64,000 bases of DNA, taken from a virus. The notes beneath the pieces are model-generated. The model saw only the letters and a program-made list of their open reading frames with translations, searched no databases and was not told the DNA's origin. A program made the translations under genes and the position numbers. The stretch's first letter is position 1; each line of letters begins with the position of its first letter. This document shows, in pieces, positions 395 through 63,545 of the stretch. The DNA lies in IMG/VR virus record IMGVR_UViG_3300009144_000037. One strand, given 5' to 3'.

Positions 395-766
395 ATGGCT
401 GATCGTTATGGAGAAATCGGCAGGTACGAAACGGACCGTGCGGGGTCAGCTTCGCTCTGGCGTATCCGGCACCCGGATCACGCCTACTACGTGGCCTTCA
501 TCGGGGATGGGGATGGGGACCGCGTCCAGCGTGAGCACCTGCGCCTCGTCTTTCGTCTCGACGGGTCGCCGCCGCCCGAGGCCCTTCAGTTCGGGCGTCG
601 GCGTGACGCGGGGCAGTTCGCCCAGGCCTTCCTGATCCCTGAGATCCCCTGGATCTTCGAGCCCTCTGTGGCCCCCGCTCCGGCCTTGTGGAGCGAAAGC
701 GCGCCGCCCGACCATCTGCTCGAGGCCTTCCAGCGAGAGCTGGCCGAGGAGAGCCTTCGGCCGTGA
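395..766 (+). CDS. Hypothetical protein coupled to TerL (positional candidate for a packaging accessory protein or TerS)
   Basis: 123-aa ORF; stop overlaps the TerL GTG (GTGA at 763-766); no TerS motif recognised. Confidence 0.6.
   Translation: MADRYGEIGRYETDRAGSASLWRIRHPDHAYYVAFIGDGDGDRVQREHLRLVFRLDGSPPPEALQFGRRRDAGQFAQAFLIPEIPWIFEPSVAPAPALWSESAPPDHLLEAFQRELAEESLRP
423..437. promoter_or_regulatory. Box A variant GGTACG-AAA-CGGACC (inside gene)
   Basis: One mismatch to consensus. Confidence 0.6.
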
Positions 767-2475
767 ACCCGCACCTGACGACCTTCATCGCGGGGCTCGA
801 CGAGCGCTTTCCCGACGACAGCACGACCATGTCGATGTCGGAGTGGATCGGATCGAACACCAAGCTCCGGCAGCGGCCGTTCAGCTTCAAGGGGTTCGAG
901 TTCCAGCGTCAGATCGTGGACGACATGCATCCCGACCTGACGTGCATGAAGCTCTCGCAGATCGGCCTCACCGAGGTCCAGATGCGGAAGTTCTTCGGCT
1001 TCCTGAAGCGCAACGTCGGAACGTCCGGCATCTTCTCGATGCCCACGCTTCCAATGCGCGACCGCCTATCGCAGACCCGGATCAAGACCCTGATCGATGG
1101 CGAGTCCATCTTCAACGGGCCGATGGTCGCCAAGCCCGTGCGTCACAAGGGGCTTTATCAGGTCGACGAGAGCTTCGGGTACATCACCGGCACCACCGAG
1201 GGCGAGGCGACCTCAATCTCGGCCGACATCCTCATGGAGGACGAGGTCGATCTGGCCGACCAGTCCATGCGCTCGCTCTTCCAGTCGCGCCTCCAGGGCT
1301 CGCTCTGGAAGATCACGCAGCGCTTCTCGACGCCCACCTACCTCGGCTACGGGATCGACGCCGCCTACCAGGCGTCCGACAAGCACGAGTGGTTCATCCG
1401 CTGTGCCTGCGGGCACCATCAGGTGCCGATCTTCCATCCTCGGTTCCTCTGCCTGCCGGGGCTGCGAGGAGACCATGAGGATCTCTCGAAGCTCTCTCAG
1501 GAGCAGGTCGATGCCATCGACATGGACGGCACCTACGTCCGCTGCGAGAAGTGCTCCCGGCCGCTCGATCTCGGCGCGCCCGGGCGCGAGTGGATCCCGG
1601 AGTTCCCTTCGCGGCGAGCCCGGGGCTATCGCGTCCGGCCCTTCTCGATCACCACGATCACGATCCCCTACATCTTCCGCATGCTGCTGGAGTACCAGCG
1701 CAAGGACAATCTGAAGGGCTGGCACAACACCGTCATCGGCGAGGCCTTCAACGACAGCAACGCCCGGATCAGCGAGGAAGACCTCATCGCCATCATGACG
1801 CCTCGGCAGGTCGAGGCCGGCGAGCTGGGATCGGGCGACCTCTTCCTGGGCTGCGACGTCGGGCAGACCTGTCACGTCGTCATCGGGAAGCCGAACGCTC
1901 TCCTCGAGTTCCACCAGGTTCCACAGCACGACATCGTCGAGTTCGTGAAGGGCCGCGTGGAGACGCTGGGCATCATCCAGGGGGGCATCGACATGTACCC
2001 CTATACCCCGACCGCCGAGGCGATCCGCGACGTCACGAACGGCGTGATCATGCCTATGGCCTACTCGACGTCCAAGGTCGCGCCGGCGGTGAAGGAGCAG
2101 GTCGACGAGTTCGAGGTGATCACCCACTACACCATCAACCGGACGCAGGCTCTCGATCTGGTCGCGAAGCAGTGCCGGCTCCGCACCTGGCAGCTGGCCG
2201 GATACGGTCCTTTCGCCTCGCTCGTGAAGACCCACTTCCGTGACATGATCCGCATCGAGGCTCCCGACGAGCCTCCGGTCTGGAACAAGATCAATGGAGA
2301 TGATCACTTTCTGCATGCCGCTGCTTTGCAGCAGACGGCAGTTCGTCTGCGTGCGGGCATCGAGTTTTCGACCGATCAAAGATCTTCTGTTTTCTTAGGA
2401 GGCGGCTCACGGTTGTTCCAGCCTGTCGGTCGACCCATATTTCGTGGCGCTGATCATGCCGGGGTTCTACGCTAG
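763..2475 (+). CDS. terL: Terminase large subunit, lambda GpA-like
   Basis: GpA-type Walker A variant KLSQIGLTE, Walker B ILMEDEVD, FSTPT coupling motif, CxxC Zn motifs, nuclease GCDVG...DDHFLHA; start placed at GTG 763. Confidence 0.9.
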   Translation: MNPHLTTFIAGLDERFPDDSTTMSMSEWIGSNTKLRQRPFSFKGFEFQRQIVDDMHPDLTCMKLSQIGLTEVQMRKFFGFLKRNVGTSGIFSMPTLPMRDRLSQTRIKTLIDGESIFNGPMVAKPVRHKGLYQVDESFGYITGTTEGEATSISADILMEDEVDLADQSMRSLFQSRLQGSLWKITQRFSTPTYLGYGIDAAYQASDKHEWFIRCACGHHQVPIFHPRFLCLPGLRGDHEDLSKLSQEQVDAIDMDGTYVRCEKCSRPLDLGAPGREWIPEFPSRRARGYRVRPFSITTITIPYIFRMLLEYQRKDNLKGWHNTVIGEAFNDSNARISEEDLIAIMTPRQVEAGELGSGDLFLGCDVGQTCHVVIGKPNALLEFHQVPQHDIVEFVKGRVETLGIIQGGIDMYPYTPTAEAIRDVTNGVIMPMAYSTSKVAPAVKEQVDEFEVITHYTINRTQALDLVAKQCRLRTWQLAGYGPFASLVKTHFRDMIRIEAPDEPPVWNKINGDDHFLHAAALQQTAVRLRAGIEFSTDQRSSVFLGGGSRLFQPVGRPIFRGADHAGVLR

Positions 2476-4049
2476 TGGCCGACAATCTTGCATCGAAGCT
2501 GCTGGCGATCGTACCCTTCAAGAAGAAGGCGCGTGCCGGCGGTACTGCGAACACGCCGACCTACAATCCGCAGAACGCGGATCAGGTCCTGACGCTGCCG
2601 CAGTACCGTGACCACCAGGACGATCTCTTTCAGGACCGTCTGGCGGACAACAGCCAGAGCCTCATCAAGAAGATGATGCAGAACGACCCGGACATGTCCG
2701 GGACCGTGAACGGCTACCTGACGCTCGCCGACACCCAGATGATCGTCTACGCCGAGGATCTGGACGGCAATGTCGACGAGGAGAAGAGCCGCGAGCTGCA
2801 GCAGCTCGTGACGAAGCTCTCTCACCAGACGGACTATACCCTCGGCTTTCAGCTTCGGCAGGGCATCTACCGTCAGGCTGAAGAGCTTCGCTACATGCTC
2901 CTGATGCGGGGCGCGATCGGGGGCGAGCTGGTCTTCGATAAGGCCGGGACACCCGACCATATTCGCAATGTCGACATGGCCGGCATCCGCTGGGTCGAGA
3001 AGAAGCCCGGCGACTACAAGCCGGGCCAGGTCGTGCCCGGCGTCTCGGATCCTGTCCCGATCGACACGCCCGCCTTCATGGTGGCGTTCTATCGGCGCGA
3101 TCCCACCGCGATCTACACCGTCTCCCCGTTCGTCTCGGCGATCAACACCATCGCCGCGCGACAGCAGGTCATCAACGACCTCTACCGCATCATGCGCGCG
3201 ACCGGGTATCCGCGCATCGAGATCAAGGTGCTCGAGGAGATCCTGACCAAGAACATGCCGGCGACCTATCGCCAGCCTGGCAGGGAGCAGGAGAAGCAGG
3301 ACTGGCTGAATGCGCGCTACGGCGAGATCCAGTCCGCCTTCGACAACATCGCGGTAGACCAGAGCCTCGTCCACTCGGATGCCGTCGAGCTGAAGATGCT
3401 CAATGACAAGGCGCCGGGGACGGCGCTCAACATCACGCCGATCATCGAGGTGCTGAACGCCCAGAACCAGGCCGCACTCAAGACCATGAGCACGATCCTA
3501 GGTCGAGGCAGCTCGGGCGTGAACACGGGCTCCGTCGAGGCGCGCCTGGCCGCTCTCTACGCCGACCAGCTGAACGAGCCCCTGGCCGACTTCTACGGTC
3601 GGATGTTCTCCTTCGTCCTGCACCAGGACGGCTACCAGGGCTTCGCTCGCGTCGAGTTCGATCCTGCCGAGCTGCGCCCATGGACCGAACTCGAGCCGCA
3701 GCTCACGCTTCGCTCGCAGCGCCTGCGCCAGGACCTCTCGGACGGCCTCATCACGGACGTCGAGTACCATCTCTGGGTCTACAAGCGACTGCCGCCGCCG
3801 GGCGCTCCGCAGCTCTCAGGGACCGGTTTCTTGTCGGCCATCGAGAGCGCGCCGGCCGGCGATACCTCGGGCACGACCAAGGCGAAGCCCGAGGACGTCA
3901 GCCCGAAGACGGACAGTGTCGGTCGTGCCTCGAGTCCGCCGCGCACGCGCGCCACGGCCGCCAACCGCCGGCAGACGCGACGCCTGGCGATGGCAAGTCT
4001 CACCGGGCAAGCCTACAAGATGATCGAGGAGCAACGTACTGACCCCTAA
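2475..4049 (+). CDS. Portal protein
   Basis: 524 aa directly after TerL (1-nt overlap); size and synteny. Confidence 0.8.
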   Translation: MADNLASKLLAIVPFKKKARAGGTANTPTYNPQNADQVLTLPQYRDHQDDLFQDRLADNSQSLIKKMMQNDPDMSGTVNGYLTLADTQMIVYAEDLDGNVDEEKSRELQQLVTKLSHQTDYTLGFQLRQGIYRQAEELRYMLLMRGAIGGELVFDKAGTPDHIRNVDMAGIRWVEKKPGDYKPGQVVPGVSDPVPIDTPAFMVAFYRRDPTAIYTVSPFVSAINTIAARQQVINDLYRIMRATGYPRIEIKVLEEILTKNMPATYRQPGREQEKQDWLNARYGEIQSAFDNIAVDQSLVHSDAVELKMLNDKAPGTALNITPIIEVLNAQNQAALKTMSTILGRGSSGVNTGSVEARLAALYADQLNEPLADFYGRMFSFVLHQDGYQGFARVEFDPAELRPWTELEPQLTLRSQRLRQDLSDGLITDVEYHLWVYKRLPPPGAPQLSGTGFLSAIESAPAGDTSGTTKAKPEDVSPKTDSVGRASSPPRTRATAANRRQTRRLAMASLTGQAYKMIEEQRTDP

Positions 4050-4071
4050 TTGTTAGGGGCACGTACGTTGC
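4031..4071. repeat. 41-bp imperfect palindrome over the portal stop (GCAACGTAC-tga-CCCCTAA-ttg-TTAGGGG-cac-GTACGTTGC)
   Basis: Read directly from the sequence. Confidence 0.9.
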
Positions 4072-4135
4072 TGTCGTGTTGAAGCATAAGGCGGTTATTC
4101 CTATCTCGCTGCAAGCTCAACACGGACCCCTTGTT

Positions 4136-5822: not shown

Positions 5823-5837
5823 GGTACGTTCCGTACC
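5823..5837. promoter_or_regulatory. Box A GGTACG-TTC-CGTACC, 26 nt before the MCP ATG
   Basis: Perfect palindrome. Confidence 0.8.
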
Positions 5838-7072: not shown

Positions 7073-7094
7073 GTTGTAGGCGCTGTCTCGAGCA

Positions 7095-7127: not shown

Positions 7128-7144
7128 CGCGGAGGGTCGCACCT

Positions 7145-19011: not shown

Positions 19012-19026
19012 GGTACGTTTCGTACC
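19012..19026. promoter_or_regulatory. Box A GGTACG-TTT-CGTACC, 12 nt before the NlpC ATG
   Basis: Perfect palindrome. Confidence 0.8.
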
Positions 19027-34822: not shown

Positions 34823-35186
34823 TTCCCTTGTCGTAGAACTCGATTAGAAGCATCACGCCGAAAGCGATCTGGGCTAGGTGAGGAAGACCGCTTTCGTCAT
34901 CGATGTCTTCGCCTTCTCTCCACGCATCGAGATGCCTTTGAAGGCTCTCGTAGCCGGAGGTCCAACTGCCGCCGCGGCGCCAGTTGTTCGCGGAATACTT
35001 GATTGCGCCGTAGCCGAGGGCGGCGGCGGTGTAGCGACCGAGGCTCGCCGGCACGAGCGACATGCGCAGCTTGCCGCTATTGAAGCGGAGCATCCCGCCA
35101 TCCTGCGCCAGCGTGGTACGTTCCGTACCAGTGGCTTCGGGCACGGCTTTGGGTGGCCGTTCTCGCGTGATCCAGTCTTCAGTCAT
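34662..35186 (-). CDS. DUF5664-type (dATP/dGTP diphosphohydrolase N-terminal) protein
   Basis: FNSGKLRMSLVP...YGAIKYSANNWRRG...SLQRHL.AW..GED.DDESGLPHLA. Confidence 0.85.
   Translation of the reverse strand: MTEDWITRERPPKAVPEATGTERTTLAQDGGMLRFNSGKLRMSLVPASLGRYTAAALGYGAIKYSANNWRRGGSWTSGYESLQRHLDAWREGEDIDDESGLPHLAQIAFGVMLLIEFYDKGIGTDDRFRYQGQPEGSLQPGRVLAFREPPRREQAGHDVGAGEGDAGGADPSAG
35115..35129. promoter_or_regulatory. Box A GGTACG-TTC-CGTACC inside the DUF5664 gene
   Basis: Perfect palindrome. Confidence 0.75.
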
Positions 35187-40410: not shown

Positions 40411-40425
40411 GGTACGTTTCGTACC
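40411..40425. promoter_or_regulatory. Box A GGTACG-TTT-CGTACC abutting the resolvase ATG
   Basis: Perfect palindrome. Confidence 0.8.
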
Positions 40426-42249: not shown

Positions 42250-44273
42250 CGGATCGGGCACCCGCCGGTCGCGCACTCGCCCTGGTCGAGCAGCTCGGCG
42301 GACTTGTCCTCGGAGATGTCGATCGGTGAGAGCCGGCGCCGGTACGCTTCGTACCGCTCGCGCGAGACACACTCCTGCGGGAGGTACTTGAAGCCCAGCT
42401 CCTCCGCGGTGGCGAGCGGGTTGTTGCGCTTGAGGAATGACACGCCGACGTACTCGTCCCAATGCTCCATGAACCAGTCGACCATGGCCGGGATCTCGGC
42501 CTCGTCGAAGGACACCGTAATCGAGCAGTTGTGGTCGACGTAGTGCTTCATCAGGAGGCGGTAGCGCTCCAGCTGGCTGATGGCACTCTCTCGGTTCACC
42601 TCGAGGTGCTCACCCTCGACCAAGTCGATAGCGGTGAACTTCGACGACGCAGGATACTCGACGGGCCAGCAGACGATGACGCCGGTCGGGTCGTTCGGGT
42701 TCGGCTTCATGTCGTAGCCGGCGGCCCGGAAGGCGCCGAGCATCGGATCGTTCGATGGGAAGTTGATCCAGTTGAAGATCCAGCGGCTCAGGGCCAGGTG
42801 CGCGCCCTCGTGGACCTCGTCGCCCTCCAGGCCCAGGGCCTTGGACGACGTGCCGGCTGGCTGAACCTGCGTGACGCGCCGGGCGCGTGGAGCGCCGAAC
42901 TCGTCCGCCATGCTGTCGGCGCCCGACACCGCGGCATCGCGCGCGGCCTCGAGCATCTCGGGACTCTCGATCCCGTCCCAGGCCACCGCGCCGGTCGGGG
43001 AGACGCCGCAGAGGCGCAGGAGCTTCTGGGCGTCGTTCCACTGGAGCTGGAGCACGCCGTCACGCATCGACACGCAGGTCTGGCGGTAGTTCGCCCGGCC
43101 GGCGAGGTACTGAGCCCGCAGGAGCCCGGCGAGATCGCCGTTGAAGCGGTGCCAGACGACCTGCACGAGGTTGCAGAACCCCTTGTTCGGCAGGAGGATC
43201 TCCGCGCAGGGGTTGAGGCCCTCCATCTCCGGCGCGCGCCGCCGGGCATGCTCGACGTTGACGAAACCGGGTTCCCCTGTCGGGAGGATCCGCTTGAGGA
43301 GATAGCTCACTACGGGGGCGGTAGGCTTGCGAGTGAAGCCGATCGAGTTGTTCGACTGCTCCCGCTGCCCCTCGCCCCGCTGCCACCGATCGGTTTTGAA
43401 CTCGATGTACCACTCGAGGTCGGTGAGAAGCTCGTCCAGGTTGCTGGCCTCAGTCTCGATGAGACAGATCTGGGCCGACCGGCGGCTCGACAGGACGGTG
43501 CCGAGGAAATTGACGACGTCGATGATCTCACCCTTCGTCAGCGGTCGGTGCGCGGCTTCCTGGAGAATGCCGGCGATGCGCTCCAGAGCGGTCGCCAGCG
43601 GTTGCCAGCCCGACGAGATCCAGCCGTAGCCGCGGAGCCGCTTGCCGCCAGGGCGCAGCTCGGAGAAGTCGAGGATCAGCTCGCCGACCCGCGGCTTCTC
43701 ACCGAACAGCATGCCGAGCGCCTTCGCCCAGCCCTTGGCGCTGTCGCCGAAGGTGATGCGCCAGGTGCCGGCGGCCATATCGATGGACTCGGAGCTGTTC
43801 TCCTCGCCGCCTCGTCCGGTACGCGTGCTCGGCACCACGGTGATCTTCTTGATCGACGAGGGGAAGCCGGACAGGAGGCCGGTGACCGGCTTGAAGCCGA
43901 CACCGCACCCGTTCAGCAGCAGCCAGAAGATATCGACGAGGTCGGCGGGGGTGTAGGCGACGGAGAATGAGCAGTTGAACGCGCCGGCCGAGCGCTCCCG
44001 GACGAGCGCGGTGCCGCCCATCCACTTCACGCGGCCGGACATCGACACCTTCGCGGAGCGCATCAGCCCTTCGAGTTCGTCCAGCTCGGCGGACTCCTCG
44101 GTGTTCAGGTCGCGCCCGAGCTGCCGCTCCCAGAGCCACCGCTGGTGGCCGACGACCCGGCTCATTGCCTCGTCCACGGTCTCGAACCGAGTCCCCTCCT
44201 CGTTGAGGGGACGTAGGTAGGTGCGACGATGCGTGAACTGCGCGCGCACCGAGGGGGTGTGGTTCGACAACAT
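42246..44273 (-). CDS. nrdJ: Class II (adenosylcobalamin-dependent) ribonucleotide reductase, monomeric RTPR type
   Basis: AFNCS, GCGVGF, RRSAQI, NPCAEI, FCNLV, VQPAGTSS, HNCSIT, C-terminal CATGGCPIR. Confidence 0.92.
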   Translation of the reverse strand: MLSNHTPSVRAQFTHRRTYLRPLNEEGTRFETVDEAMSRVVGHQRWLWERQLGRDLNTEESAELDELEGLMRSAKVSMSGRVKWMGGTALVRERSAGAFNCSFSVAYTPADLVDIFWLLLNGCGVGFKPVTGLLSGFPSSIKKITVVPSTRTGRGGEENSSESIDMAAGTWRITFGDSAKGWAKALGMLFGEKPRVGELILDFSELRPGGKRLRGYGWISSGWQPLATALERIAGILQEAAHRPLTKGEIIDVVNFLGTVLSSRRSAQICLIETEASNLDELLTDLEWYIEFKTDRWQRGEGQREQSNNSIGFTRKPTAPVVSYLLKRILPTGEPGFVNVEHARRRAPEMEGLNPCAEILLPNKGFCNLVQVVWHRFNGDLAGLLRAQYLAGRANYRQTCVSMRDGVLQLQWNDAQKLLRLCGVSPTGAVAWDGIESPEMLEAARDAAVSGADSMADEFGAPRARRVTQVQPAGTSSKALGLEGDEVHEGAHLALSRWIFNWINFPSNDPMLGAFRAAGYDMKPNPNDPTGVIVCWPVEYPASSKFTAIDLVEGEHLEVNRESAISQLERYRLLMKHYVDHNCSITVSFDEAEIPAMVDWFMEHWDEYVGVSFLKRNNPLATAEELGFKYLPQECVSRERYEAYRRRLSPIDISEDKSAELLDQGECATGGCPIR
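42341..42355. promoter_or_regulatory. Box A GGTACG-CTT-CGTACC inside the nrdJ 3' end
   Basis: Perfect palindrome. Confidence 0.7.
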
Positions 44274-44321: not shown

Positions 44322-44336
44322 GGTACGTTTCGTACT
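44322..44336. promoter_or_regulatory. Box A variant GGTACG-TTT-CGTACT upstream of nrdJ
   Basis: One mismatch; overlaps the ligase stop. Confidence 0.7.
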
Positions 44337-45405
44337 AGTCCGGCCGGTCAAAATCGATGGCGACCGGGAAGCGCGGCATGCCGTCCGGGGTGGGCGTGAA
44401 GTAGCGGACCGTCACGATCTTCGGCTGCGGCCGAGCCAGCAGCTCGGCCATCTGCTCGCGCGTCCCACGAATGCCACCACCGCACTCCCGGCCGTCGTCG
44501 AGGCGGAAGCGGATCCGCTTCGCGAGCCCGGCCCAGTTGCCGTTCCCGGGCTCGACGGCGATCAGCTCGAACTCGCGGGTCTCGAACTCCTTCCGCTTCA
44601 GGAGTTGCTTCGAGCGCTTGTTCTCGTAGGGGCCATCGAGCCGAATGATCTGGCCCTCGTAGCCGGCCTCGAGATAGGTGCCGTAGGCCCGGTCGAGCTG
44701 CTCGATGGTCGCGACTGGAGAGGTCGGGACCTTCACGATCTCGTTGCCCGGCAGCTGCGCCACGAACAGATCGAGCATCTGGTCGCGCTGACTGAACGTC
44801 TTGTCCGTGAGGACGAGGTCGTAGACGTGGTACTGGACGAGCTTCGACGCCTCGAGGATGTCGTCGTCCTCGGGCTTCGACTTCCTCACCATCGAGACGA
44901 TCTTGTTGAAGTCGTCCTTCAGCTCGTGGTTGTACAGCTCGCCGTCGAACTCGAGATCCGGCTTGTTGACGAAGGCGGGGGCGAGGATGGCGAAGATGTG
45001 CGGGGCGCCCAGGATCGGCTTGCCCGTGCGGCTCCACATGCCGTGCCGGTTCACCTTGCACCGAATGCCGTCGAGCTTCGGCTGCGAAAAGCACTCGCCC
45101 GGCCACCCCTCGAACTTGTGGGCGAGCATGACCTTCGGTCCGAAGGACCGAGGCTCGTCGACACCGGCCTCGGTGACGGCGTAGTCCTTGTCGAGCTTCT
45201 TCCCCATCTCGGCCTCGGCCTCGAACAGGGCCTGCTCTTCGGCTGTGTCGCGGCTCTTGGGCACGCAGGTCGTCCAGCCGGACGTCACCACGGCCCCGCC
45301 GAGCACGCCGCTATGCGACCGCCACCGGTCGCCGTCGACTTCATAGTTCCAGGTACGTATCGTACCATTGGTGTCACGCTTGAAGATCCTCTTCCCCGTC
45401 GACAT
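44335..45405 (-). CDS. lig: ATP-dependent DNA ligase with N-terminal extension
   Basis: QPKLDGIR adenylation motif, FDGELY, YDLV, YEGQIIR, KRSKQLLKRK, C-terminal OB domain. Confidence 0.92.
   Translation of the reverse strand: MSTGKRIFKRDTNGTIRTWNYEVDGDRWRSHSGVLGGAVVTSGWTTCVPKSRDTAEEQALFEAEAEMGKKLDKDYAVTEAGVDEPRSFGPKVMLAHKFEGWPGECFSQPKLDGIRCKVNRHGMWSRTGKPILGAPHIFAILAPAFVNKPDLEFDGELYNHELKDDFNKIVSMVRKSKPEDDDILEASKLVQYHVYDLVLTDKTFSQRDQMLDLFVAQLPGNEIVKVPTSPVATIEQLDRAYGTYLEAGYEGQIIRLDGPYENKRSKQLLKRKEFETREFELIAVEPGNGNWAGLAKRIRFRLDDGRECGGGIRGTREQMAELLARPQPKIVTVRYFTPTPDGMPRFPVAIDFDRPD
45352..45366. promoter_or_regulatory. Box A GGTACG-TAT-CGTACC inside the ligase 5' end
   Basis: Perfect palindrome; uses the rare ATA codon. 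Confidence 0.75.
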
Positions 45406-50465: not shown

Positions 50466-50480
50466 GGTACGGAACGTACC
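50466..50480. promoter_or_regulatory. Box A GGTACG-GAA-CGTACC upstream of the SSB-like gene (arms extend to 10 bp, 50462-50484)
   Basis: Perfect palindrome. Confidence 0.8.
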
Positions 50481-50752: not shown

Positions 50753-50767
50753 GGTCCGTTTCGTACC
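50753..50767. promoter_or_regulatory. Box A variant GGTCCG-TTT-CGTACC abutting an ATG
   Basis: One mismatch. Confidence 0.7.
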
Positions 50768-54455: not shown

Positions 54456-54625
54456 GATCGTCTCCGCAGGAACAGCGCGAGGCAGCGGCGGGTAAGCGGG
54501 TCGGAGTTGATCCGGCCATCGGCGATCAGCTTCAGGCGGCCGGAGAGGTCGTCGCGCCGCGCGGTCGGCGAGAGCCGATGGTGGATGCGCAACAGACCGA
54601 AGAAGGACTTGGTGTCGAGGATCAT
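54452..54625 (-). CDS. Small hypothetical protein (57 aa, MILDTKSFFGLLRIHHRL...)
   Basis: 4-nt overlaps at both ends; below the ORF-track cutoff. Confidence 0.6.
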   Translation of the reverse strand: MILDTKSFFGLLRIHHRLSPTARRDDLSGRLKLIADGRINSDPLTRRCLALFLRRRS

Positions 54626-55083
54626 GCGGCTAAGGCTCCGTCAGGAGGACACATGAGATCCTCGATAGAGGTCCCCAGTATCGTCGAGATCTTTCGGATC
54701 TCAGTCATGGTGAAGTCGTGGTATCCCTGCTCCATGGCGGACAGGGTTACTCGGTTCGAGAAGTCGAAGTGGGCGGCGAACTCGCTGAGCGTCATGTGCT
54801 CGGAGAGGCGAAGCTTCACCAGCTTGCGTCCGATACGGATGTGCTCAGCACTGATGGCCTGCCGCTCGGAGAAGGGCCGGTGGTAGGCGTCGGTCGAAGC
54901 GGCGCCGCGCGTCGCACGAGCCTTCTCCATCCGCGCCCGCTGCTCGGGCGTGAACCCCTGCACGATGCGGTTGAAGTAGACCCGGACCGTGGACGGCGAG
55001 AGCTTTGGCAGCTCTCGGGCCGCCTCTTGGTGGGAGAGGCCCGCGAGGGCCAGATCCCGGATGCGGGAGTCTGTGGCGTTCAT
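54622..55083 (-). CDS. Two-HTH transcriptional regulator (N-terminal HTH plus XRE-type HTH)
   Basis: GLSHQEAARELPKLSPSTVRVY and IGRKL..LR...MTLSEFA...LSAMEQG...I.KISTILG.S. Confidence 0.8.
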   Translation of the reverse strand: MNATDSRIRDLALAGLSHQEAARELPKLSPSTVRVYFNRIVQGFTPEQRARMEKARATRGAASTDAYHRPFSERQAISAEHIRIGRKLVKLRLSEHMTLSEFAAHFDFSNRVTLSAMEQGYHDFTMTEIRKISTILGTSIEDLMCPPDGALAA

Positions 55084-55739
55084 GCGTCGGTGAGCCTCCG
55101 ATCGATCATGCGACGACGTGAGCCGTGCGCCGGGAAGCCGACGATCACGCCGCGTGGCCGGGGCCGGGAGCAGAGGTTGCAGGTCGAGCATGTCACCCGA
55201 TCGCTGAAGGTGGCCGGGCACACGGCCACCTCGCGGCCGCTGGGTGTGTGCGTCGGCCGGCGGCCGTGATCGGACGGCAGCACGGTGACGACGCTCATGT
55301 CAGGCGCAGCGTCGAGCACGGCGTCGGCCTCCGCGAGGCTGTCGGTCGAGACGTTGATGTGCATGCCGAGCGCCCCGGCCTTGCGGTACGTATCGTACCT
55401 ACGACCATGGGTAAAGACGATCGCCTCCCGGCCGCCGTTGGCGCGGGCCAGGGCGACCACATCGGCGGGCTCGGGCGGCAGGTCGCCGGCCGTGCCGTAG
55501 CGCCAGCGGATCCGCTTGGGCAACGCGCGGATAAGGTGCAGCAGCTGCTCGAACGTGACCTGGTTCGGAGCGTCGCCCGCGGTGAGCTTGCGCCAGAAGA
55601 TCGAGGCCGGACCGTGCTCGGCGTAGCAGCCGGCGCCGCGGAGCGCACAGGTCGAGGGGCATGTGGCCTGTGAGGCCATGACGGCGGGCATGGGTCCGAG
55701 CTTGCGATTGGTGGACACGCGGCGGAAGTGGAACATCAT
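55080..55739 (-). CDS. Cys-rich Fe-S/radical-SAM-like phage protein (GP88/DUF7227-like)
   Basis: N.KLGP, TCPSTC...GCYA..GP, RY..AGD, FTH, INVS.D, CPA...CSTC.LC, FPAHG. Confidence 0.7.
   Translation of the reverse strand: MMFHFRRVSTNRKLGPMPAVMASQATCPSTCALRGAGCYAEHGPASIFWRKLTAGDAPNQVTFEQLLHLIRALPKRIRWRYGTAGDLPPEPADVVALARANGGREAIVFTHGRRYDTYRKAGALGMHINVSTDSLAEADAVLDAAPDMSVVTVLPSDHGRRPTHTPSGREVAVCPATFSDRVTCSTCNLCSRPRPRGVIVGFPAHGSRRRMIDRRLTDA
55385..55399. promoter_or_regulatory. Box A GGTACG-TAT-CGTACC inside the Fe-S protein gene
   Basis: Perfect palindrome. Confidence 0.75.
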
Positions 55740-55761: not shown

Positions 55762-55776
55762 GGTACGAAACGTACC
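55762..55776. promoter_or_regulatory. Box A GGTACG-AAA-CGTACC upstream of the Fe-S/HTH operon
   Basis: Perfect palindrome. Confidence 0.8.
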
Positions 55777-56628: not shown

Positions 56629-56677
56629 GGAGCGAGGATCACAACTCGTTCCTGCAGGACGTAGAACCGCCCCGCAT

Positions 56678-56956
56678 TCACCCGTCCCTGGCAGGAACGG
56701 ATGAAGTGTCCGCCGCCGAGCTTGCCCCGGAACGGCGCTGTCTCGAGCGCTGCTCGATCCAGCCGGTGATCTCGCCTGTCACGCGCTTCACGATGCTGTT
56801 ATGGACAGATCGTCGATGGACGTTGTTGGCGAGATATTCGGGATGTGCCTTGAAGCATTCGTAGATCGCGCCTTCGGTCAGGCGCCAGATCTGACCATAG
56901 AGTGCGTTCGTTCGCTTCTCAAACTTGATGCGTCTGCGCTTAGGCTTATTTGACAT
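56678..56956 (-). CDS. Hypothetical basic protein
   Basis: ATG 56956 (ORF track starts at 56980). Confidence 0.6.
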   Translation of the reverse strand: MSNKPKRRRIKFEKRTNALYGQIWRLTEGAIYECFKAHPEYLANNVHRRSVHNSIVKRVTGEITGWIEQRSRQRRSGASSAADTSSVPARDG

Positions 56957-57007
56957 ATGGCTACACCAAATATTTGACACCTATCAGAAAGCGCACTGAC
57001 GAAATCA

Positions 57008-57865: not shown

Positions 57866-57868
57866 AGC

Positions 57869-58465: not shown

Positions 58466-58524
58466 TTGATCCTCGCGTGTTTTCGGTGTGGAAGTCCCGG
58501 GGCAAGTGCCCCGGGTGGTCGCGG

Positions 58525-60189: not shown

Positions 60190-60208
60190 CGTTGTATCCT
60201 CGTGGTCT

Positions 60209-60223
60209 GGTACGAAACGTACC
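60209..60223. promoter_or_regulatory. Box A GGTACG-AAA-CGTACC upstream of rIIB
   Basis: Perfect palindrome. Confidence 0.8.
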
Positions 60224-60268
60224 TCTGATGATGGGCGCAACTGTCCCATGGGACAGTTGCTTCAGCGA

Positions 60269-62389
60269 TTACTTGGCGAGCAGCGCGAAGTAGTGGTCGA
60301 GACGGCGCTGCTCTTCCTTGGACGGCTTCGTGTCGTAGTAGCTGCGGCACATCTTATCGATGAGCAGCTCGAGCAGGGGAGCCTGCTCGAGGAGTGCGTC
60401 CCAACGATCGTTGATGGGCTGTGTCGGATCTTTGGCGACCGACTTGACGTCGGTGCCCGTAATCTTGAGGTTGAGCGCGGCGAGCTTGTCGTGCTCGTTC
60501 TCCGCGCGGTCGAGCCCGTCGCGGGTCTGCAGCATCGCGAGCATCTCGTAGTAGATGTCGCGCATCTCCTGCGGCGCCGTGCCGATGTCGATGTTCTTGT
60601 CCCTGATCTTGATCAGCTCGCTGGGGAAGCTGCTCTCGCTCCAGGGGATCGTGGGAGCGACCTGCATCGGATCGAGCGCCGCGTCGATCAGCTCGGCGAA
60701 GTAGTCCGCCACGTGGATCCAGTGCGGCCGGACCTCGGTCTTGCTGTCCACGACGACGAGGTTGAAGTCGTCGGGGAGAAGACCGTGCTGACACATCTCC
60801 TCGCAGTAGCTGGCGAACCGGGACGCTGCCCACGACCGTGCCTTATCTTCGTAGCGAGAGGAGATGGTCCGGCGGCTCCCGCGGCCGTCGAGCGTGCAGT
60901 AGACCAGCTCCTCGTCGGTATCGAGCAGCTCGGTGTGGGTTCGATTGCCGCCACTGTTGCGGCTCAGGACCTTGAGCCGCTTCACGCTCTCGGGGCGCTG
61001 CTCGCGCTGGCCCTTCTGACGCGGCGGGAGCTTGATGTCGTCGAGCACGACGTAGTCAGGGCGACCCATCCGGTCGAGCGCGTAGTCGAGGTCGGCCCGC
61101 TTGACCCGGACCCAGAGGCAGGGCGTGTCCATGAGCCCGGCCGCCTCGAACCGCTCGAGCGAGCGGCTGGTGGCGTGCTGGATCACGACGACGCGGCCCT
61201 CGACCTCGCCGGGGTTCACGCTCCAGTCGGCCTTGAACGTGAGCGGGATCAGATGCGCCCCGGCGTCCCGGCGCCGGACACGGTCCATGTCGGGCCAGCA
61301 GCAGGCCTTCACGCGGCCCTGCTCGGGGAACAGGTTGTCGTAGAAGCTGAAGCCGCGCCAGCCGATCTCACGGACCATCAGCCAGCCATTCTGGCCGAGG
61401 GATCGGCTGATGTCGTCGGCCTTCCAGCGAGCCCGGAAGTAGGTCGGCTCGACGTCGACCGCCGCGTGGGCCTTCTGCATCCAGTCCTGGTCGTAGTGCT
61501 CGAAGAGCGCGCGGAGCCCGGCTTCGGTGCGGTCGTCGTACTGCAGCGCCTCGCGGCTCGCCGAGACGGAGATCGAGCCGATCTTGGCCTTGAAGACGAT
61601 GCAGGTGTTGCTCTCGAGCAGGCGCGAGGCACGCGGCGCCAGACCCCAGTTGACCGGGTACATGACCGGGCCGAGCTGAACCTGCGGACCGGAGAACGGT
61701 ACGGTCTCGTTGCGATAGACCGTCCAGCCGTCGCCCTGGTGCAGCACCTTGGGCTGTCCGAAGTCGATCGCCGGGGTGATCACGGGCTTGGGCTCGAAGG
61801 ACCAGTAGACCGCCTCGGCGTGCTCGTGGAAGCGGTCGATGTCCCCCTCGCGGACGAGGAACGTGATCTCCAGGCCGGTGCCGCGGTCCTCAGGCTCGAG
61901 CACCCACTCGCCCATGAACTGGATCTCGATCTTGCCGGTCGCGTTCACGCCGATGACGTAGACCCGGCGGAAGCCGCGGTGCCGGCTGATCACGGTGAAG
62001 GAGCCGGCGCCATCCGAGCGCATGAGGTAGGCGAGCGCCGCCTTCGAGCCGAAGCCCCAGCCGCCGACCGCGTCGTCGTCGCCGTCCTTGGTGCTCTCGC
62101 CGATCTTGGCGTAGCTCTTCATCGCGAACTTGTGGCTGATGCCGGGGCCGAAGTCGCGGATCGTGAACTGCGGGTTGAAGGTCGTCGGCAGCTCGACCTC
62201 GAAGGGCTTGCCGGCGGGCGAGACCTCCCAGGCGTTGGTGGCGTACTCGCGGACGGGGTACACGACCTTGTCCGACACCATGCCGGTGAGCAGGGCGTAG
62301 ACGATCTTGGCATCACCGCCGACGCCGGTCTGCTGGACCTGCATCGCGCCTTCGGTGGCGTTCTCCTGGATGGCGTGTACCATACGCAT
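60269..62389 (-). CDS. rIIA: rIIA-like protein (GHKL/HATPase N-terminus)
   Basis: VREYATNAWE, IRDFGPGI, STK......GGWGFGSK; adjacent to rIIB. Confidence 0.9.
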   Translation of the reverse strand: MRMVHAIQENATEGAMQVQQTGVGGDAKIVYALLTGMVSDKVVYPVREYATNAWEVSPAGKPFEVELPTTFNPQFTIRDFGPGISHKFAMKSYAKIGESTKDGDDDAVGGWGFGSKAALAYLMRSDGAGSFTVISRHRGFRRVYVIGVNATGKIEIQFMGEWVLEPEDRGTGLEITFLVREGDIDRFHEHAEAVYWSFEPKPVITPAIDFGQPKVLHQGDGWTVYRNETVPFSGPQVQLGPVMYPVNWGLAPRASRLLESNTCIVFKAKIGSISVSASREALQYDDRTEAGLRALFEHYDQDWMQKAHAAVDVEPTYFRARWKADDISRSLGQNGWLMVREIGWRGFSFYDNLFPEQGRVKACCWPDMDRVRRRDAGAHLIPLTFKADWSVNPGEVEGRVVVIQHATSRSLERFEAAGLMDTPCLWVRVKRADLDYALDRMGRPDYVVLDDIKLPPRQKGQREQRPESVKRLKVLSRNSGGNRTHTELLDTDEELVYCTLDGRGSRRTISSRYEDKARSWAASRFASYCEEMCQHGLLPDDFNLVVVDSKTEVRPHWIHVADYFAELIDAALDPMQVAPTIPWSESSFPSELIKIRDKNIDIGTAPQEMRDIYYEMLAMLQTRDGLDRAENEHDKLAALNLKITGTDVKSVAKDPTQPINDRWDALLEQAPLLELLIDKMCRSYYDTKPSKEEQRRLDHYFALLAK

Positions 62390-62413
62390 CGGTGTTCTCC
62401 TCGGAGGGTTGCT

Positions 62414-62428
62414 GGTACGATACGTACC
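62414..62428. promoter_or_regulatory. Box A GGTACG-ATA-CGTACC upstream of rIIA
   Basis: Perfect palindrome. Confidence 0.8.
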
Positions 62429-62478
62429 AGGACATTGCAGCAAACGGCAAGCCTTTTCTAGACCTACCATAGAATTAG

Positions 62479-62727
62479 TTAGTTGCTATTACTGGAGCAA
62501 AGCTTCGCCCGCCGCGACTTCAGCTCACGAAGAGCGAGGTTGCGGTAGTGTAGTGCTTGCTGCTGGGCTCTCGGTGCTTCGGGGGCAGCAGCTCCCGAAG
62601 CAGTCAGCTCGCTGATGTCACGAGCGAAGCGGCGGATCAGGGCATCACACTCGCCCAGCTCGACGATATCGGCTGCGGTGCGGGTGCGAGCGCTATCCAC
62701 CCAGATCGGCTGGCGACGGTTACCCAA
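62479..62727 (-). CDS. Hypothetical protein
   Basis: ORF track; start uncertain (TTG). Confidence 0.5.
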   Translation of the reverse strand: MGNRRQPIWVDSARTRTAADIVELGECDALIRRFARDISELTASGAAAPEAPRAQQQALHYRNLALRELKSRRAKLCSSNSN

Positions 62728-63289
62728 GCCCCTCCCCTTCCCTGTACTCGACCGGCACGACAGCCCGGACGCCGCGCAAGTTGGCGCGAGCCTCGGCCTC
62801 GGTGTCGAACATATAGAGGAAGAGTCCGCGCTCCGCAGGGTACTCCTTGCCGCCGACGACCTGCTTGCCCTCCTCGTTGAGCTTGCGGTCGTAGATCCGC
62901 AGCCAGCGGGTGACGGTGGGGTTCACCTCGACGACATCGCCCGGGTGATCGCCCTTGCTCGCCGGGTGGCGCCCGGCCTTGGTGCGGGCTCCGGTGATGA
63001 AGCTGCCGTCTTCCGCATGGATGCGGACATGCAGACAGAACTCGCTCCCGGAGCCGTCGTCGAACTTGAGGATGTCGACCGGACGCCCGCTGCGGGTCTG
63101 GTACTTGCTGTCGGGGCGCAACGAGCGCGGGGTGAAGCCGCTGTCGCTGGAGAGGTCGATCTCCTCACCGTTGACGACGAACTTCGGCGCCTCGCGCAGA
63201 GCAGCGAGAGCCTGGCCGGCAGCGGCGTAGGCGTTCGCAGCGAAGACATCCGTCTGGTACTGGACATTGAAGGCTGGCAACGTGGTCAT
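62720..63289 (-). CDS. Hypothetical protein
   Basis: ATG after GAGGAG; YQTRSGRPV.I motif. Confidence 0.7.
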   Translation of the reverse strand: MTTLPAFNVQYQTDVFAANAYAAAGQALAALREAPKFVVNGEEIDLSSDSGFTPRSLRPDSKYQTRSGRPVDILKFDDGSGSEFCLHVRIHAEDGSFITGARTKAGRHPASKGDHPGDVVEVNPTVTRWLRIYDRKLNEEGKQVVGGKEYPAERGLFLYMFDTEAEARANLRGVRAVVPVEYREGEGLG

Positions 63290-63304
63290 ACTGATGTTCT
63301 CCTC

Positions 63305-63505
63305 TCAGGGTTCGTGCCGCGCGTGGATCTGGTCGATGATGTCGGCTTGGTGGGCGATGGAGAGGTCGTCGATGCCGTCGACCTCGATCTCAAGCGGTGC
63401 GCGCCAGCCGACCTCCGGGTAGTCACGGCCTCGACGGGCGTCGTAGTCGACGTCGATCGAGGCGTCGGGGTCACGGGGATCGGTGACCGTCATGCGGTAG
63501 GCCAT
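63305..63505 (-). CDS. Small acidic hypothetical protein
   Basis: ATG 63505 after GAGGA. Confidence 0.6.
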   Translation of the reverse strand: MAYRMTVTDPRDPDASIDVDYDARRGRDYPEVGWRAPLEIEVDGIDDLSIAHQADIIDQIHARHEP

Positions 63506-63530
63506 GTGATGTCCTCGAAGGGTTGGCGGT

Positions 63531-63545
63531 GGTCCGTTTCGGACC
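63531..63545. promoter_or_regulatory. Box A symmetric variant GGTCCG-TTT-CGGACC
   Basis: Both arms changed, palindrome retained. Confidence 0.7.

What the first reader, a model, noticed from the sequence alone, without database searches (positions are those of the whole stretch)
423..63545. Genome-wide network of at least 15 copies of a 15-bp palindrome (Box A: GGTMCG-NNN-CGKACY)
Seen: 11 perfect copies (5823, 19012, 35115, 40411, 42341, 45352, 50466, 55385, 55762, 60209, 62414) and 4 near-perfect copies (423, 44322, 50753, 63531), all with an AT-rich 3-nt spacer. My hand estimate is about 0.01 perfect copies expected by chance at this GC. Ten copies lie 0-48 nt upstream of start codons in both arms (MCP, NlpC, resolvase, nrdJ, SSB, rIIA, rIIB and others). 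Known analogues are dispersed repressor sites: mycobacteriophage L5/Bxb1 stoperators and Streptomyces phiC31 conserved inverted repeats. Inference: one phage protein could silence or coordinate the whole genome through promoter occlusion plus roadblocks. That would be notable in a phage with no visible integrase and lytic-looking replication genes, and could point to a plasmid-like, carrier or pseudolysogenic state. Alternatives: a parS-like condensation site, triloop DNA hairpins, or an RNA hairpin for a processing or translation factor.
Basis: partly seen in the sequence, partly recalled or inferred. Interest (0 to 1): 0.92.

Follow-up and report, generated by a model that had tools for sequence, protein, structure and literature searches.

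The report
Phage-wide palindromic promoter-operator boxes
A 15-base palindrome repeated 24 times in an 84-kb temperate phage of Methylobacterium-type bacteria heads nearly every block of genes. It is most likely the docking site through which one phage-encoded two-domain regulator shuts the whole genome down. The logic is known from other phages, but the motif, its directional flank and its likely binder are new.

Summary
All 15 boxes are at the stated coordinates, against 0.1 expected by chance, and the whole 84,125-bp genome has 24.

The box (K-GTMCG-WWW-CGKAC-M) is the symmetric core of a directional module. A -35-like hexamer (yTTGCC) lies 10 nt upstream, on the side facing away from the gene. 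The start codon or Shine-Dalgarno follows 0-35 nt downstream.

The module sits at the same gene junctions in six relatives, including a circular-looking 84-kb contig of Methylorubrum suomiense. That host's 5.5-Mb chromosome has essentially none of it. A relative that lacks a 153-aa two-HTH protein also lacks the boxes.

The two arms vary independently, which argues against a hairpin. The protein's Xre-type domain is predicted to homodimerise.

Best reading (about 0.5): Box A is an operator laid over the core of most phage promoters, read by this regulator. This would be a global off-switch like mycobacteriophage stoperators, P1 C1 operators or phiC31 CIRs. An activator-dependent promoter remains a serious rival (0.25).

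An integrase and an excisionase-type gene lie just outside the window. A ParA gene and circular relatives do support a plasmid-like state.

The scan has reported analogous networks before, on other phage-plasmids.

The parts
423..437 (+). Box A (GGTACGAAACGGACC, one-arm A-to-C variant) in the divergent region before the small ORF and large terminase
   Evidence: Orthologous boxes in G001 (43468) and G002 (4317). Large terminase 763-2475. May lie inside ORF 395-766.
5823..5837 (+). Box A, 26 nt before the major capsid protein ATG, with SD GAGGAG between; hairpin upstream
   Evidence: Same position in G001 38324, G002 11359 and G005 21694.
19012..19026 (+). Box A filling a 30-nt gap: stop, 3 nt, box, 12 nt, ATG of the minor tail protein (phrog_30)
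   Evidence: Orthologous in G001 24629, G002 25399 and G005 35199.
35115..35129 (-). Box A with hexamer CGTGCC, 21 nt before an in-frame ATG upstream of the MazG-like gene block
   Evidence: Orthologous in G001 5901, G002 39110 and G005 55878.
40411..40425 (-). Box A directly abutting the resolvase ATG (0 nt), preceded by a terminator-like hairpin whose loop carries TTGCTG 17 bp upstream of TACGAA
   Evidence: Box-to-ATG spacing is 0, 1, 3 and 3 nt in G000, G001, G002 and G005, with TTG at -21 in all four.
42341..42355 (-). Box A inside the 3' end of the ribonucleotide reductase gene (hexamer TGTGTC), upstream of the 97-aa HTH gene
   Evidence: Same place in G002 46346.
44322..44336 (-). Box A (outer-base variant) overlapping the ligase stop codon, 48 nt before the ribonucleotide reductase ATG; hexamer TTTGAC
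45352..45366 (-). Box A inside the first ~50 nt of the ligase coding sequence
   Evidence: Orthologous in G001 80924 and L028 15771.
50466..50480 (-). Box A, 34 nt before the ATG of the 228-aa gene 49745-50431
   Evidence: Orthologous in G001 74200, G002 54651, G005 71671, L028 10077, L029 14282 and L031 13984, all with TATCTC nearby.
50753..50767 (-). Box A (one-arm variant), 3 nt after the SNF2 helicase stop and abutting the ATG of an 88-aa ORF
   Evidence: Orthologous in G001 74109, G002 54740 and G005 71748.
55385..55399 (-). Box A embedded in the DUF7227 coding sequence (encodes R-Y-D-T-Y-R), ~300 nt upstream of the regulator gene
   Evidence: Present in all seven Box A phages. G004's DUF7227 has unrelated residues at that position.
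55762..55776 (-). Box A, 22 nt before the ATG of the DUF7227-regulator operon, with SD GAGGA between
60209..60223 (-). Box A, 19 nt before the rIIB ATG, after a 10-bp hairpin
   Evidence: In G001, G002 and G005 a Box B palindrome lies between Box A and the rIIB start.
62414..62428 (-). Box A at the gene-proximal end of a 336-nt AT-rich gap, 24 nt before the rIIA ATG; TTGCCG 18 bp upstream of TACGTA
63531..63545 (-). Box A (both-arm variant GGTCCG/CGGACC), 25 nt before the ATG of a 66-aa gene
54622..55083 (-). Candidate Box A binder: a 153-aa protein with an N-terminal LuxR/sigma-region-4-like HTH and a C-terminal Xre/Cro-type HTH. It is translationally coupled to its neighbours by 4-nt overlaps.
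   Evidence: Pfam HTH_3; PHROG repressor/regulator families; PDB profile hits for both domains; AF2 model with two helical domains; Xre-type fold matches; homodimer prediction passes; phyletic fit.

Best explanation
Box A is the symmetric core of a conserved, directional promoter-operator module that heads most transcription units of this temperate phage. The module has three parts. A -35-like hexamer (consensus y-T-T-G-C/T-C) lies 10 nt upstream. The 15-17-bp palindrome Y-K-GTMCG-WWW-CGKAC-M-R follows. The Shine-Dalgarno or start codon then comes 0-35 nt downstream. A phage-encoded 153-aa regulator (54622-55083, minus strand) binds the palindrome on duplex DNA as a homodimer through its Xre-type domain. 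Its second, LuxR/sigma4-like HTH may read the flanking hexamer. The mRNA must begin at or before the 3' edge of the box, so the bound dimer sits over the -10/start region or on the transcribed leader. It therefore blocks transcription by promoter occlusion or roadblock. One protein can thus silence early, replication, excision and late genes together while the phage sits as an integrated or plasmid-like prophage, and it regulates its own operon. Shown: the motif, its enrichment, orientation, position, conservation and phage specificity, and the co-occurrence with the protein. Inferred: the identity of the binder, binding as a dimer, and the sign of regulation.
For: Enrichment: 15 sites against 0.1 expected, and 24 in the genome. 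Directionality: T, G and C at -14, -13 and -11 occur in 45, 55 and 49 of 73 sites; hexamer orientation agrees with gene direction in 78 of 90 informative sites, p=5e-13; -35-like hexamers peak only in the gene orientation. Location: 78 of 101 sites are intergenic or at a start in genomes that are about 91% coding. Conservation: the module sits at orthologous junctions (MCP, resolvase, rIIA, rIIB, DUF7227 and others) in G001, G002, G005, L028, L029 and L031. Phage specificity: the M. suomiense chromosome has one GTACG-N3-CGTAC site among its listed matches, with a GC spacer, while the 84-kb phage contig has at least 22. Duplex DNA rather than hairpin: 23 of 29 variant sites break the pair, and the single-arm variants would fold at only -1.3 kcal/mol. 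DNA-level selection in coding sequence: the DUF7227 box is absent from G004's orthologue. Binder: the protein is present in all seven Box A phages and absent from G004, which is 97% complete and has no boxes. Its recognition helix FSNRVxLSAMEQGYHDF is invariant. Trp-Gly just before that helix occurs only in the two phages whose boxes carry T/A outer bases. The homodimer score is 0.47 against a best control of 0.00, a mark reached by 20 of 30 solved pairs and 1 of 23 single chains; the runs agree in at least 95% of contacts and partner pLDDT is at least 79. Geometry favouring repression: start codons lie at -1 to +3 and SDs begin from +1 after the box. Temperate lifestyle: integrase, xis-type gene and ParA. 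Boxes flank the divergent xis / early-operon control region.
Against: No experiment shows binding, a transcription start or an effect on expression. No canonical -10 is visible. With the hexamer as a -35 and a 17-bp spacer, the -10 would be WCGTAC, which lacks the key A. It is therefore unclear whether host RNA polymerase alone can fire these promoters, as a repressor model requires. Canonical sigma70 promoters are at chance level in the 30-kb leftward arm. The regulator gene is translationally coupled inside a lytic-looking operon, which is unusual for a lysogeny repressor. The core specificity is conserved across phages whose regulators are only 42-62% identical, which is unlike fast-diverging immunity specificities. 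Boxes also precede late structural genes such as the MCP gene, where a strong promoter makes more sense than a roadblock. The co-occurrence of protein and box rests on one clade plus one informative outgroup.
Confidence: 0.5

Rival explanations
1. Activator-dependent phage promoter. The module is a phage-specific promoter that host RNA polymerase cannot use alone. The two-HTH protein acts as a promoter-specificity factor. Its Xre dimer binds the palindrome and its sigma4-like domain binds the hexamer at about -30, comparable to T4 MotA, P1 Lpa or R-M C-proteins. It would turn on all lytic units, and the prophage stays silent while the activator is off.
For: No recognisable -10 or correctly spaced -35. 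Canonical promoters are at chance level in the arm. Intrinsic terminators are followed at 0 nt by Box A and then SD plus start in five relatives, which looks like re-initiation. Boxes precede the MCP, terminase and tail genes. The specificity is conserved like that of core transcription machinery. The regulator gene is coupled within a lytic operon, with two Box A copies upstream, which would give positive feedback. The hexamer lies 12 bp from TACGWW, the same spacing as the MotA box from the -10 (own knowledge). C-protein promoters likewise lack a -10 and give leaderless mRNAs (PMC2632904).
Against: SDs and start codons begin 0-20 nt after the box, so the box centre lies within about 8-16 bp of any usable start site. 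A duplex-bound Xre dimer there should clash with RNA polymerase. Known activators of this kind bind at about -22 (P1 Lpa) or further upstream, at about -30 (T4 MotA) or over the -35 region (C-proteins); these positions are from my own knowledge. The first leftward promoter and xis also carry boxes, so infection could not start without pre-made activator. G000 lost the box after its strong terminator at 49516-49545, yet keeps the essential polymerase genes downstream.
Confidence: 0.25
2. RNA or single-stranded DNA hairpin. The box folds into a 6-bp stem with a triloop in mRNA. It then serves as a processing site, a 5'/3' stabiliser or a translational operator next to start codons, or as an N4-type extruded DNA hairpin promoter.
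For: Perfect copies fold at -6.0 to -8.2 kcal/mol. The boxes sit next to SDs and start codons. Seuss's analogous palindrome contains the SD. One metatranscriptome contig ends inside box 44322 (weak).
Against: The arms do not covary. There are 23 unpaired against 6 compensated variants at positions 4/12 (Fisher p=0.07), and 31 of 101 outer pairs are non-complementary. Single-arm variants at conserved positions (423, 50753) fold at only -1.3 kcal/mol. The sequence, not just the pairing, is conserved. No phage RNA polymerase was found in Pfam and PHROG scans of the larger and regulatory ORFs. The conserved hexamer is upstream and unpaired.
Confidence: 0.05
3. Chromosome-handling sites. The boxes are parS-like centromere or condensation sites, packaging or replication sites, or nick sites.
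For: A ParA-type ATPase is encoded. The relatives look plasmid-like.
Against: The sites are oriented with genes and lie at 5' ends of genes. They are not clustered at the par locus; the nearest is about 870 bp from parA in G000. The ParB-like gene occurs only in G000, while boxes occur in all relatives.
Confidence: 0.03
4. Host transcription-factor regulon. The boxes are sites of a Methylobacterium regulator that the phage has borrowed.
For: None specific. A Crp/FNR-type gene is carried by G000, G001 and G005.
Against: The 5.5-Mb host genome shows no enrichment: 62 matches to the loose pattern against 65 for the reversed control. Nearly all chromosomal matches have GC-rich spacers. The Crp-like gene was not found in G002, which has 23 boxes, although that contig is only 86% complete.
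Confidence: 0.03

Closest known systems
Cluster A mycobacteriophage (L5, Bxb1, TipsytheTRex) immunity repressor with operators and stoperators
   Same: More than 20 sites are dispersed over both arms of a temperate siphophage genome. They lie in promoters and short intergenic gaps, and their orientation tracks the direction of transcription. The binder has two DNA-binding domains in one chain, and its gene is co-oriented with lytic genes (PMC9283540).
   Different: The L5-type site is a 13-bp asymmetric sequence read by a monomer. Here the core is a palindrome read, by prediction, by a dimer, and asymmetry comes only from a hexamer 10 nt away. The proteins are unrelated: here the domains are LuxR-like plus Xre, and the PDB profile search at E<=1 did not return the mycobacteriophage repressor. 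The host phylum is also different.
Phage P1 C1 repressor and its dispersed operators
   Same: One repressor controls many scattered operons of a plasmid prophage. This comparison was suggested by earlier scan report e1-5323508.
   Different: P1 operators are asymmetric 17-mers bound by a monomeric 283-aa protein (own knowledge). No sequence or domain relation was tested beyond family scans.
Streptomyces phage phiC31 conserved inverted repeats (CIRs) bound by the c repressor
   Same: About 18 near-identical inverted repeats lie in intergenic regions next to conserved non-host-like early promoters of a temperate phage (own knowledge: Ingham et al. 1994; Wilson et al. 1995). This is the closest match for a palindrome paired with a conserved promoter.
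   Different: The sequence, host and repressor family differ. CIRs are confined to early regions, whereas Box A also precedes late genes. I could not retrieve the primary papers with the tools.
Restriction-modification controller (C) proteins and C-boxes
   Same: The binder's C-terminal domain matches C.AhdI and C.BclI folds. C-proteins are Xre dimers that read short inverted repeats with a 3-bp spacer. Their target promoters lack a clear -10, and leaderless mRNAs are common (PMC2632904).
   Different: C-boxes are paired operators in a 35-bp unit about 17-18 nt upstream of the protein's own start codon, at one locus per system. Here a single palindrome abuts starts at about 24 loci, and the protein carries an extra N-terminal HTH.
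Caulobacter phage Seuss (nearest described genome) and its gp77 HTH regulator
   Same: The genome architecture is the same. gp77 is a distant homologue, 32% identical with E=4.6e-12. Seuss has a 6-3-6 palindrome, TTTACC-N3-GGTAAA, at five unique gene starts including rIIA. It shares the TAC-N5-GTA core with Box A.
   Different: Seuss has no Box A. Its palindrome contains the SD and has no upstream hexamer. Its recognition helix differs (S-RVRIRTMEVGAHDF). No integrase is annotated in Seuss.

Membership tests
Stoperator-type global repressor network (mycobacteriophage cluster A) | More than 20 binding sites dispersed across one phage genome, in promoters and short intergenic gaps | tested here: met
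   24 sites in 84 kb; 78 of 101 sites in four genomes are intergenic or at a start.
Stoperator-type global repressor network (mycobacteriophage cluster A) | Site orientation correlates with direction of transcription | tested here: met
   78 agree and 12 disagree, judged by the flanking hexamer. The palindromic core itself has no orientation.
Stoperator-type global repressor network (mycobacteriophage cluster A) | Asymmetric 13-14-bp site bound by a monomer | tested here: not met
   The core is a perfect 6-3-6 palindrome. The binder's Xre domain is predicted to homodimerise, 0.47 against control 0.00.
Stoperator-type global repressor network (mycobacteriophage cluster A) | Repressor homologous to L5 gp71 (HTH plus Stoperator domain) | tested here: not met
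   Pfam, PHROG and PDB profile searches give LuxR-type and Xre-type HTH hits only.
Stoperator-type global repressor network (mycobacteriophage cluster A) | Binding represses initiation and blocks elongation | not testable with these tools
   Only contigs of public runs were available, with no transcript ends.
R-M controller C-protein / C-box circuit | Small Xre-type HTH dimer | tested here: inconclusive
   The C-terminal domain fits: TM-scores of 0.6-0.7 normalised to the C.AhdI and C.BclI targets, and the dimer prediction passes. But the protein is 153 aa with an extra N-terminal HTH.
R-M controller C-protein / C-box circuit | Paired operators in a ~35-bp unit about 17-18 nt upstream of its own leaderless gene | tested here: not met
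   The sites are single palindromes. The regulator's start codon overlaps the upstream gene's stop, and the nearest boxes are ~300 and ~680 nt upstream.
Phage-RNA-polymerase promoter (T7-type or N4 hairpin type) | Phage encodes its own RNA polymerase | tested here: not met
   No RNA polymerase family appeared in Pfam or PHROG scans of the larger and regulatory ORFs of both arms. Many small ORFs were not scanned.
Phage-RNA-polymerase promoter (T7-type or N4 hairpin type) | N4 type: the promoter works as an extruded hairpin, so stem pairing is maintained | tested here: not met
   23 of 29 variant sites break the pair at positions 4/12.
parS / ParB centromere sites | Sites clustered at or near the par locus and bound by a conserved ParB | tested here: not met
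   The nearest box is about 870 bp from parA, and the sites are spread over 84 kb. The ParB-like gene occurs only in G000.
Sigma70 promoter with overlapping operator | -35 hexamer, 16-18-bp spacer, then a -10 hexamer with A at position 2 and T at position 6 | tested here: inconclusive
   -35-like hexamers peak at -15 and at -21/-22 from the box start, in the gene orientation only. The -21 register gives TACGWW as the -10 (A2 present, T6 in about a third of sites). The -15 register gives WCGTAC (no A2). The consensus scan finds no excess of canonical promoters.

The most novel reading that the evidence does not exclude
The 153-aa two-HTH protein is a new kind of promoter-specificity factor. An Xre-type dimer anchors on the palindrome that replaces the -10 region, and a sigma-region-4-like domain docks on the hexamer at about -30. 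It hands host RNA polymerase to about 24 otherwise dead promoters that start transcription at the edge of the box, producing leaderless or very short-leader mRNAs. The whole temperate phage would then be gated by one positive-feedback factor rather than by a repressor.
Probability: 0.15. Interest if true: 0.85.

Novelty: new variant of a known kind. Interest (0 to 1): 0.55.

Why it matters
If the reading holds, this adds a third, unrelated solution to the problem of silencing a large temperate phage genome with one protein. It is a palindromic, dimer-read operator fused into the core of nearly every promoter and made directional by a flanking hexamer. It would stand beside the asymmetric monomer sites of mycobacteriophage L5 and coliphage P1.

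It also defines the regulon, the probable regulator and the unit boundaries for an undescribed family of about 84-kb temperate or plasmid-like relatives of Caulobacter phage Seuss. These live in Methylobacterium/Methylorubrum, bacteria that turn up as contaminants in many sequencing projects.

The compact 31-33-bp module and its cognate small regulator could become an orthogonal switch for methylotroph engineering.

The unresolved geometry makes a simple 5'-end mapping experiment unusually informative. That geometry has no visible -10, start codons that abut the box, and two registers of -35-like hexamers.

Tried and rejected
1. The 97-aa HTH protein (41983-42276) as binder. Rejected: it is absent from G001 and G005, which have boxes, and present in G004, which has none.
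2. The ParB-like protein (57008-57865) as binder. Rejected: it occurs only in G000.
3. The Crp/FNR-like protein (G000 7053-7796) as binder. Not excluded but unlikely: it was not found in G002, which has 23 boxes, although that contig is only 86% complete.
4. A hairpin function. Rejected on the lack of arm covariation.
5. A host regulon. Rejected on the whole-genome scan of M. suomiense.
6. A phage RNA polymerase. None found in the family scans.
7. Sigma54, EcfG and other ECF promoter geometries, considered by hand. The spacings do not fit; this was reasoning, not a tool test.
8. A MerR-type spacer operator, considered by hand. The palindrome is not centred in a 19-20-bp spacer.
9. Treating Seuss's TTTACC-N3-GGTAAA as the same element. 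Kept only as a lead, because it contains the SD and has no upstream hexamer.
10. Transcript ends from public runs. Only assembled contigs were available. X5 and X8 look like DNA, and the metatranscriptome pieces (X17, X18) are too few. Six of about 13 pieces overlap a box, but that is not interpretable.
11. Unbiased palindrome and 12-mer searches in the Box A-less relatives G003 and G004. They found no substitute motif.
12. Literature searches for this phage group and for phiC31 CIR papers. They returned nothing usable.

Full report
**Observation**

That gives 29 strand-matches, against a mean of 0.10 and a maximum of 2 in dinucleotide-preserving shuffles. Allowing one mismatch adds only four doubtful sites.

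The window is bases 17877-81876 of an 84,125-bp, 65% G+C virus record. The full genome has 24 boxes. GGTACG is by far the commonest arm among all perfect 6-3-6 palindromes: 17 of 98.

**What the element is**

The genome is a siphophage with the architecture of Caulobacter phage Seuss. A rightward structural arm is flanked by leftward replication and early arms. Nucleotide identity to Seuss is only about 69% over polymerase-region fragments.

A tyrosine integrase (Phage_integrase plus Arm-DNA-bind_3) lies at the contig's right end, just outside the window. A convergent HTH_17 excisionase-type gene lies beside it. A ParA-type ATPase and a Crp/FNR-type regulator lie in the left arm.

**Anatomy of the sites**

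When the sites are oriented by the neighbouring gene, the palindrome extends to 17 bp (Y...R). It gains an asymmetric partner: a hexamer at -16 to -11 from the box start, with consensus y-T-T-G-C/T-C. T, G and C at -14, -13 and -11 occur in 45, 55 and 49 of 73 sites in three genomes. Nothing comparable occurs on the other side.

Across four complete genomes (101 sites):
- Hexamer-based orientation agrees with gene direction in 78 of 90 informative cases (p=5e-13).
- 78 sites are intergenic or at a gene start, in genomes that are about 91% coding.
- -35-like hexamers peak at two registers, -15 and -21/-22 from the box start, and only in the gene orientation.

Downstream, the start codon follows at -1 to +3 nt in at least eight cases. 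For the resolvase gene the spacing is 0, 1, 3 and 3 nt in the four genomes. Most other starts follow at 6-36 nt, and Shine-Dalgarno sequences begin as early as +1 after the box.

Upstream there is often a stop codon or a terminator-like hairpin. In five relatives a canonical intrinsic terminator with a U-tract is followed at 0 nt by the box.

In some promoters a second palindrome, Box B (CCATAT-N3-ATATGG), lies between Box A and the start codon.

**Conservation and specificity**

Six relatives carry the same core, K-GTMCG-WWW-CGKAC-M, at the same gene junctions:
- two IMG/VR genomes (G001, 85.7 kb; G002, 71 kb);
- a circular-looking 84,253-bp contig of Methylorubrum suomiense DSM 14458 (G005);
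- three assembly contigs (L028, L029, L031).

These have 26, 23 and 28 sites in the three full genomes. G001 and L028 use T/A rather than G/C as the outer base.

One box sits inside the DUF7227 coding sequence in all seven phages and takes each genome's flavour. The G004 orthologue, from a phage without boxes, has unrelated residues there. The box is therefore selected at the DNA level.

The M. suomiense chromosome (5.5 Mb) shows no enrichment: 62 matches against 65 for a reversed control, almost all with GC spacers. The AT-spacer sites pile up on the phage contig. The motif is therefore phage-specific.

More distant relatives G003 and G004 have no such palindrome and no substitute. Seuss has a different 6-3-6 palindrome, TTTACC-N3-GGTAAA, at five gene starts. 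It shares the TAC-N5-GTA core with Box A.

**Duplex DNA or hairpin**

The arms vary independently. At positions 4/12 there are 72 A/T pairs, 6 compensated C/G pairs and 23 unpaired combinations (Fisher p=0.07). At the outer pair, 31 of 101 are non-complementary. Single-arm variants at conserved positions would fold at only -1.3 kcal/mol, against -6.0 for perfect copies. This fits two half-sites read independently by a dimeric protein. It does not fit an RNA or extruded DNA hairpin.

**The likely binder**

The 153-aa product of 54622-55083 (minus strand) carries a Cro/C1-type HTH (Pfam HTH_3; PHROG repressor families). Its N-terminal 50 residues match LuxR/NarL-type HTH domains weakly but consistently in a PDB profile search.

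An AlphaFold model (mean pLDDT 79) shows two helical domains joined by a disordered linker. The C-terminal domain resembles Xre dimers such as C.AhdI, C.BclI, SinR and ClgR.

The family is tiny, with nine database hits. Every locus that encodes the protein has Box A. G004, which is 97% complete, keeps the flanking DUF7227 and SNF2 genes but lacks both the protein and the boxes.

The recognition helix and the following stretch (FSNRVxLSAMEQGYHDF) are invariant in all Box A phages and altered in Seuss gp77. A Trp-Gly just before that helix occurs only in the two phages with T/A outer bases. That is probably one evolutionary event.

A homodimer prediction for residues 74-153 passes. The score is 0.47 against a best control of 0.00, a mark reached by 20 of 30 solved pairs and 1 of 23 single chains. 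The runs agree in at least 95% of contacts and partner pLDDT is at least 79. The invariant HDFT stretch lies in the interface. This supports pairing but does not prove it.

**Mechanism**

SDs or start codons begin 0-20 nt after the box, so the mRNA 5' end must lie at the 3' edge of the box or upstream of it. A dimer on duplex DNA would then cover roughly -15 to -1, or the first bases of the transcript. Proteins in those positions block transcription.

At the resolvase junction, all four genomes have TTG(C/T)NN exactly 17 bp upstream of TACGAA, in the left arm of the box. The start codon follows 7-10 nt after that hexamer. This reads as a sigma70-type leaderless promoter with the operator over its -10.

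Two boxes, plus a one-mismatch copy between them, flank the divergent control region between the excisionase-type gene and the first leftward operon. Two boxes precede the regulator's own gene, which would give autoregulation.

I therefore favour a global repressor-operator network, with confidence about 0.5. Its logic is that of L5 stoperators (PMC9283540), P1 C1 operators and phiC31 CIRs.

**Weaknesses and the main rival**

- No canonical -10 is visible. Canonical promoters are at chance level in the leftward arm.
- The main hexamer register does not give a usable -10.
- The regulator gene is translationally coupled within a lytic-looking operon.
- The specificity is conserved across divergent phages.
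- Boxes precede late genes such as the MCP gene.

These points fit an activator-dependent promoter, as with C-proteins (PMC2632904), T4 MotA or P1 Lpa. I give that reading 0.25.

One natural experiment weakens the idea that the box is an obligatory promoter. G000 has lost the box that follows the strong terminator at 49516-49545 in five relatives, yet essential polymerase genes lie downstream.

**Other evidence**

The exact sequence occurs at full length in runs from at least a dozen unrelated studies, including groundwater, bat, volcano, plant and soil samples. This fits a Methylobacterium-type laboratory or reagent contaminant as carrier.

Only assembled contigs were available, so no transcript ends could be read. 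One run holds the phage as a single 84,097-bp contig.

**Earlier scan notes**

Notes on this genome had already proposed the two-HTH protein as binder, and had argued from half-site variants for a dimer. I tested both and they hold.

Two earlier reports describe analogous dispersed palindromes in other phage-plasmids, one of them in a Methylobacterium virus. I did not test those.

**Verdict**

This is a new variant of a known kind of phage regulatory network, with an unusual bipartite site and a two-HTH candidate regulator. The sign of regulation and the transcription start sites remain to be measured.

Noticed in passing
L004:984-2249 (-) and L004:900-1097 (+), i.e. genome 82860-84125 and 82776-82973, just right of the window: A tyrosine integrase and a convergently overlapping HTH_17 excisionase-type gene. 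A Box A lies 8 nt before the xis-like ATG. A second box heads the leftward operon 110 bp away, and a one-mismatch box (GGTCCTTTTCGGACC) lies between them.
   Followed up: partly
L003:11814-12524 (-) and L003:7053-7796 (+): A ParA/MinD-type ATPase and a Crp/FNR-type regulator (cNMP_binding plus HTH_Crp_2) in the poorly conserved left arm. Together with the circular 84-kb relatives, this suggests a phage-plasmid lifestyle alongside integration.
   Followed up: partly
L003: 1822, 6136, 7369, 8133, 9932, 10516, 10819 (each 15 bp): A second 6-3-6 palindrome family, CCATAT-N3-ATATGG, confined to the left arm and lying 10-37 nt before start codons. In G001, G002 and G005 a copy lies between Box A and the rIIB start, the position of a second operator.
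   Followed up: partly
L003: 9071-9085, 9094-9108; window 304-318 (genome 18180): A third palindrome, ACATTGC-N-GCAATGT. A tandem pair lies in a 600-bp non-coding region, and one copy lies in the divergent region before the structural arm. A half-copy sits just upstream of the rIIA Box A.
   Followed up: no
window 49486-49545: A strong intrinsic terminator (13-bp stem plus U-tract) is followed directly by SD and ATG, with no Box A. Five relatives have terminator, then Box A, then SD at this junction. The loss in this genome implies read-through or antitermination for the polymerase operon.
   Followed up: partly
window 55000-64000 (whole phage): The identical sequence is present at full length in runs from many unrelated studies (groundwater, bat, volcano, plant, marine sediment, soil). 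This pattern is typical of a reagent or laboratory contaminant host such as Methylobacterium.
   Followed up: partly
window 57008-57865: The low-GC island encoding a 285-aa protein (PHROG family of unknown function) is absent from G001, G002, G005, G003, G004 and Seuss, so it is probably a recent insertion.
   Followed up: partly
L002 (Seuss 68938, 76122, 82486) and L001 (717, 1515): Seuss carries TTTACCTSAGGTAAA at five unique gene starts. It contains the annotated ribosome-binding site and is usually preceded by a hairpin. It may be the counterpart of Box A for the diverged gp77 regulator.
   Followed up: partly
window 10116-10355 (-): The only minus-strand ORF in the structural arm gives weak ribbon-helix-helix hits (FitA-like RHH at E=0.006; Arc at E=0.015). 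It is conserved in G001, G002, G005 and G004.
   Followed up: partly
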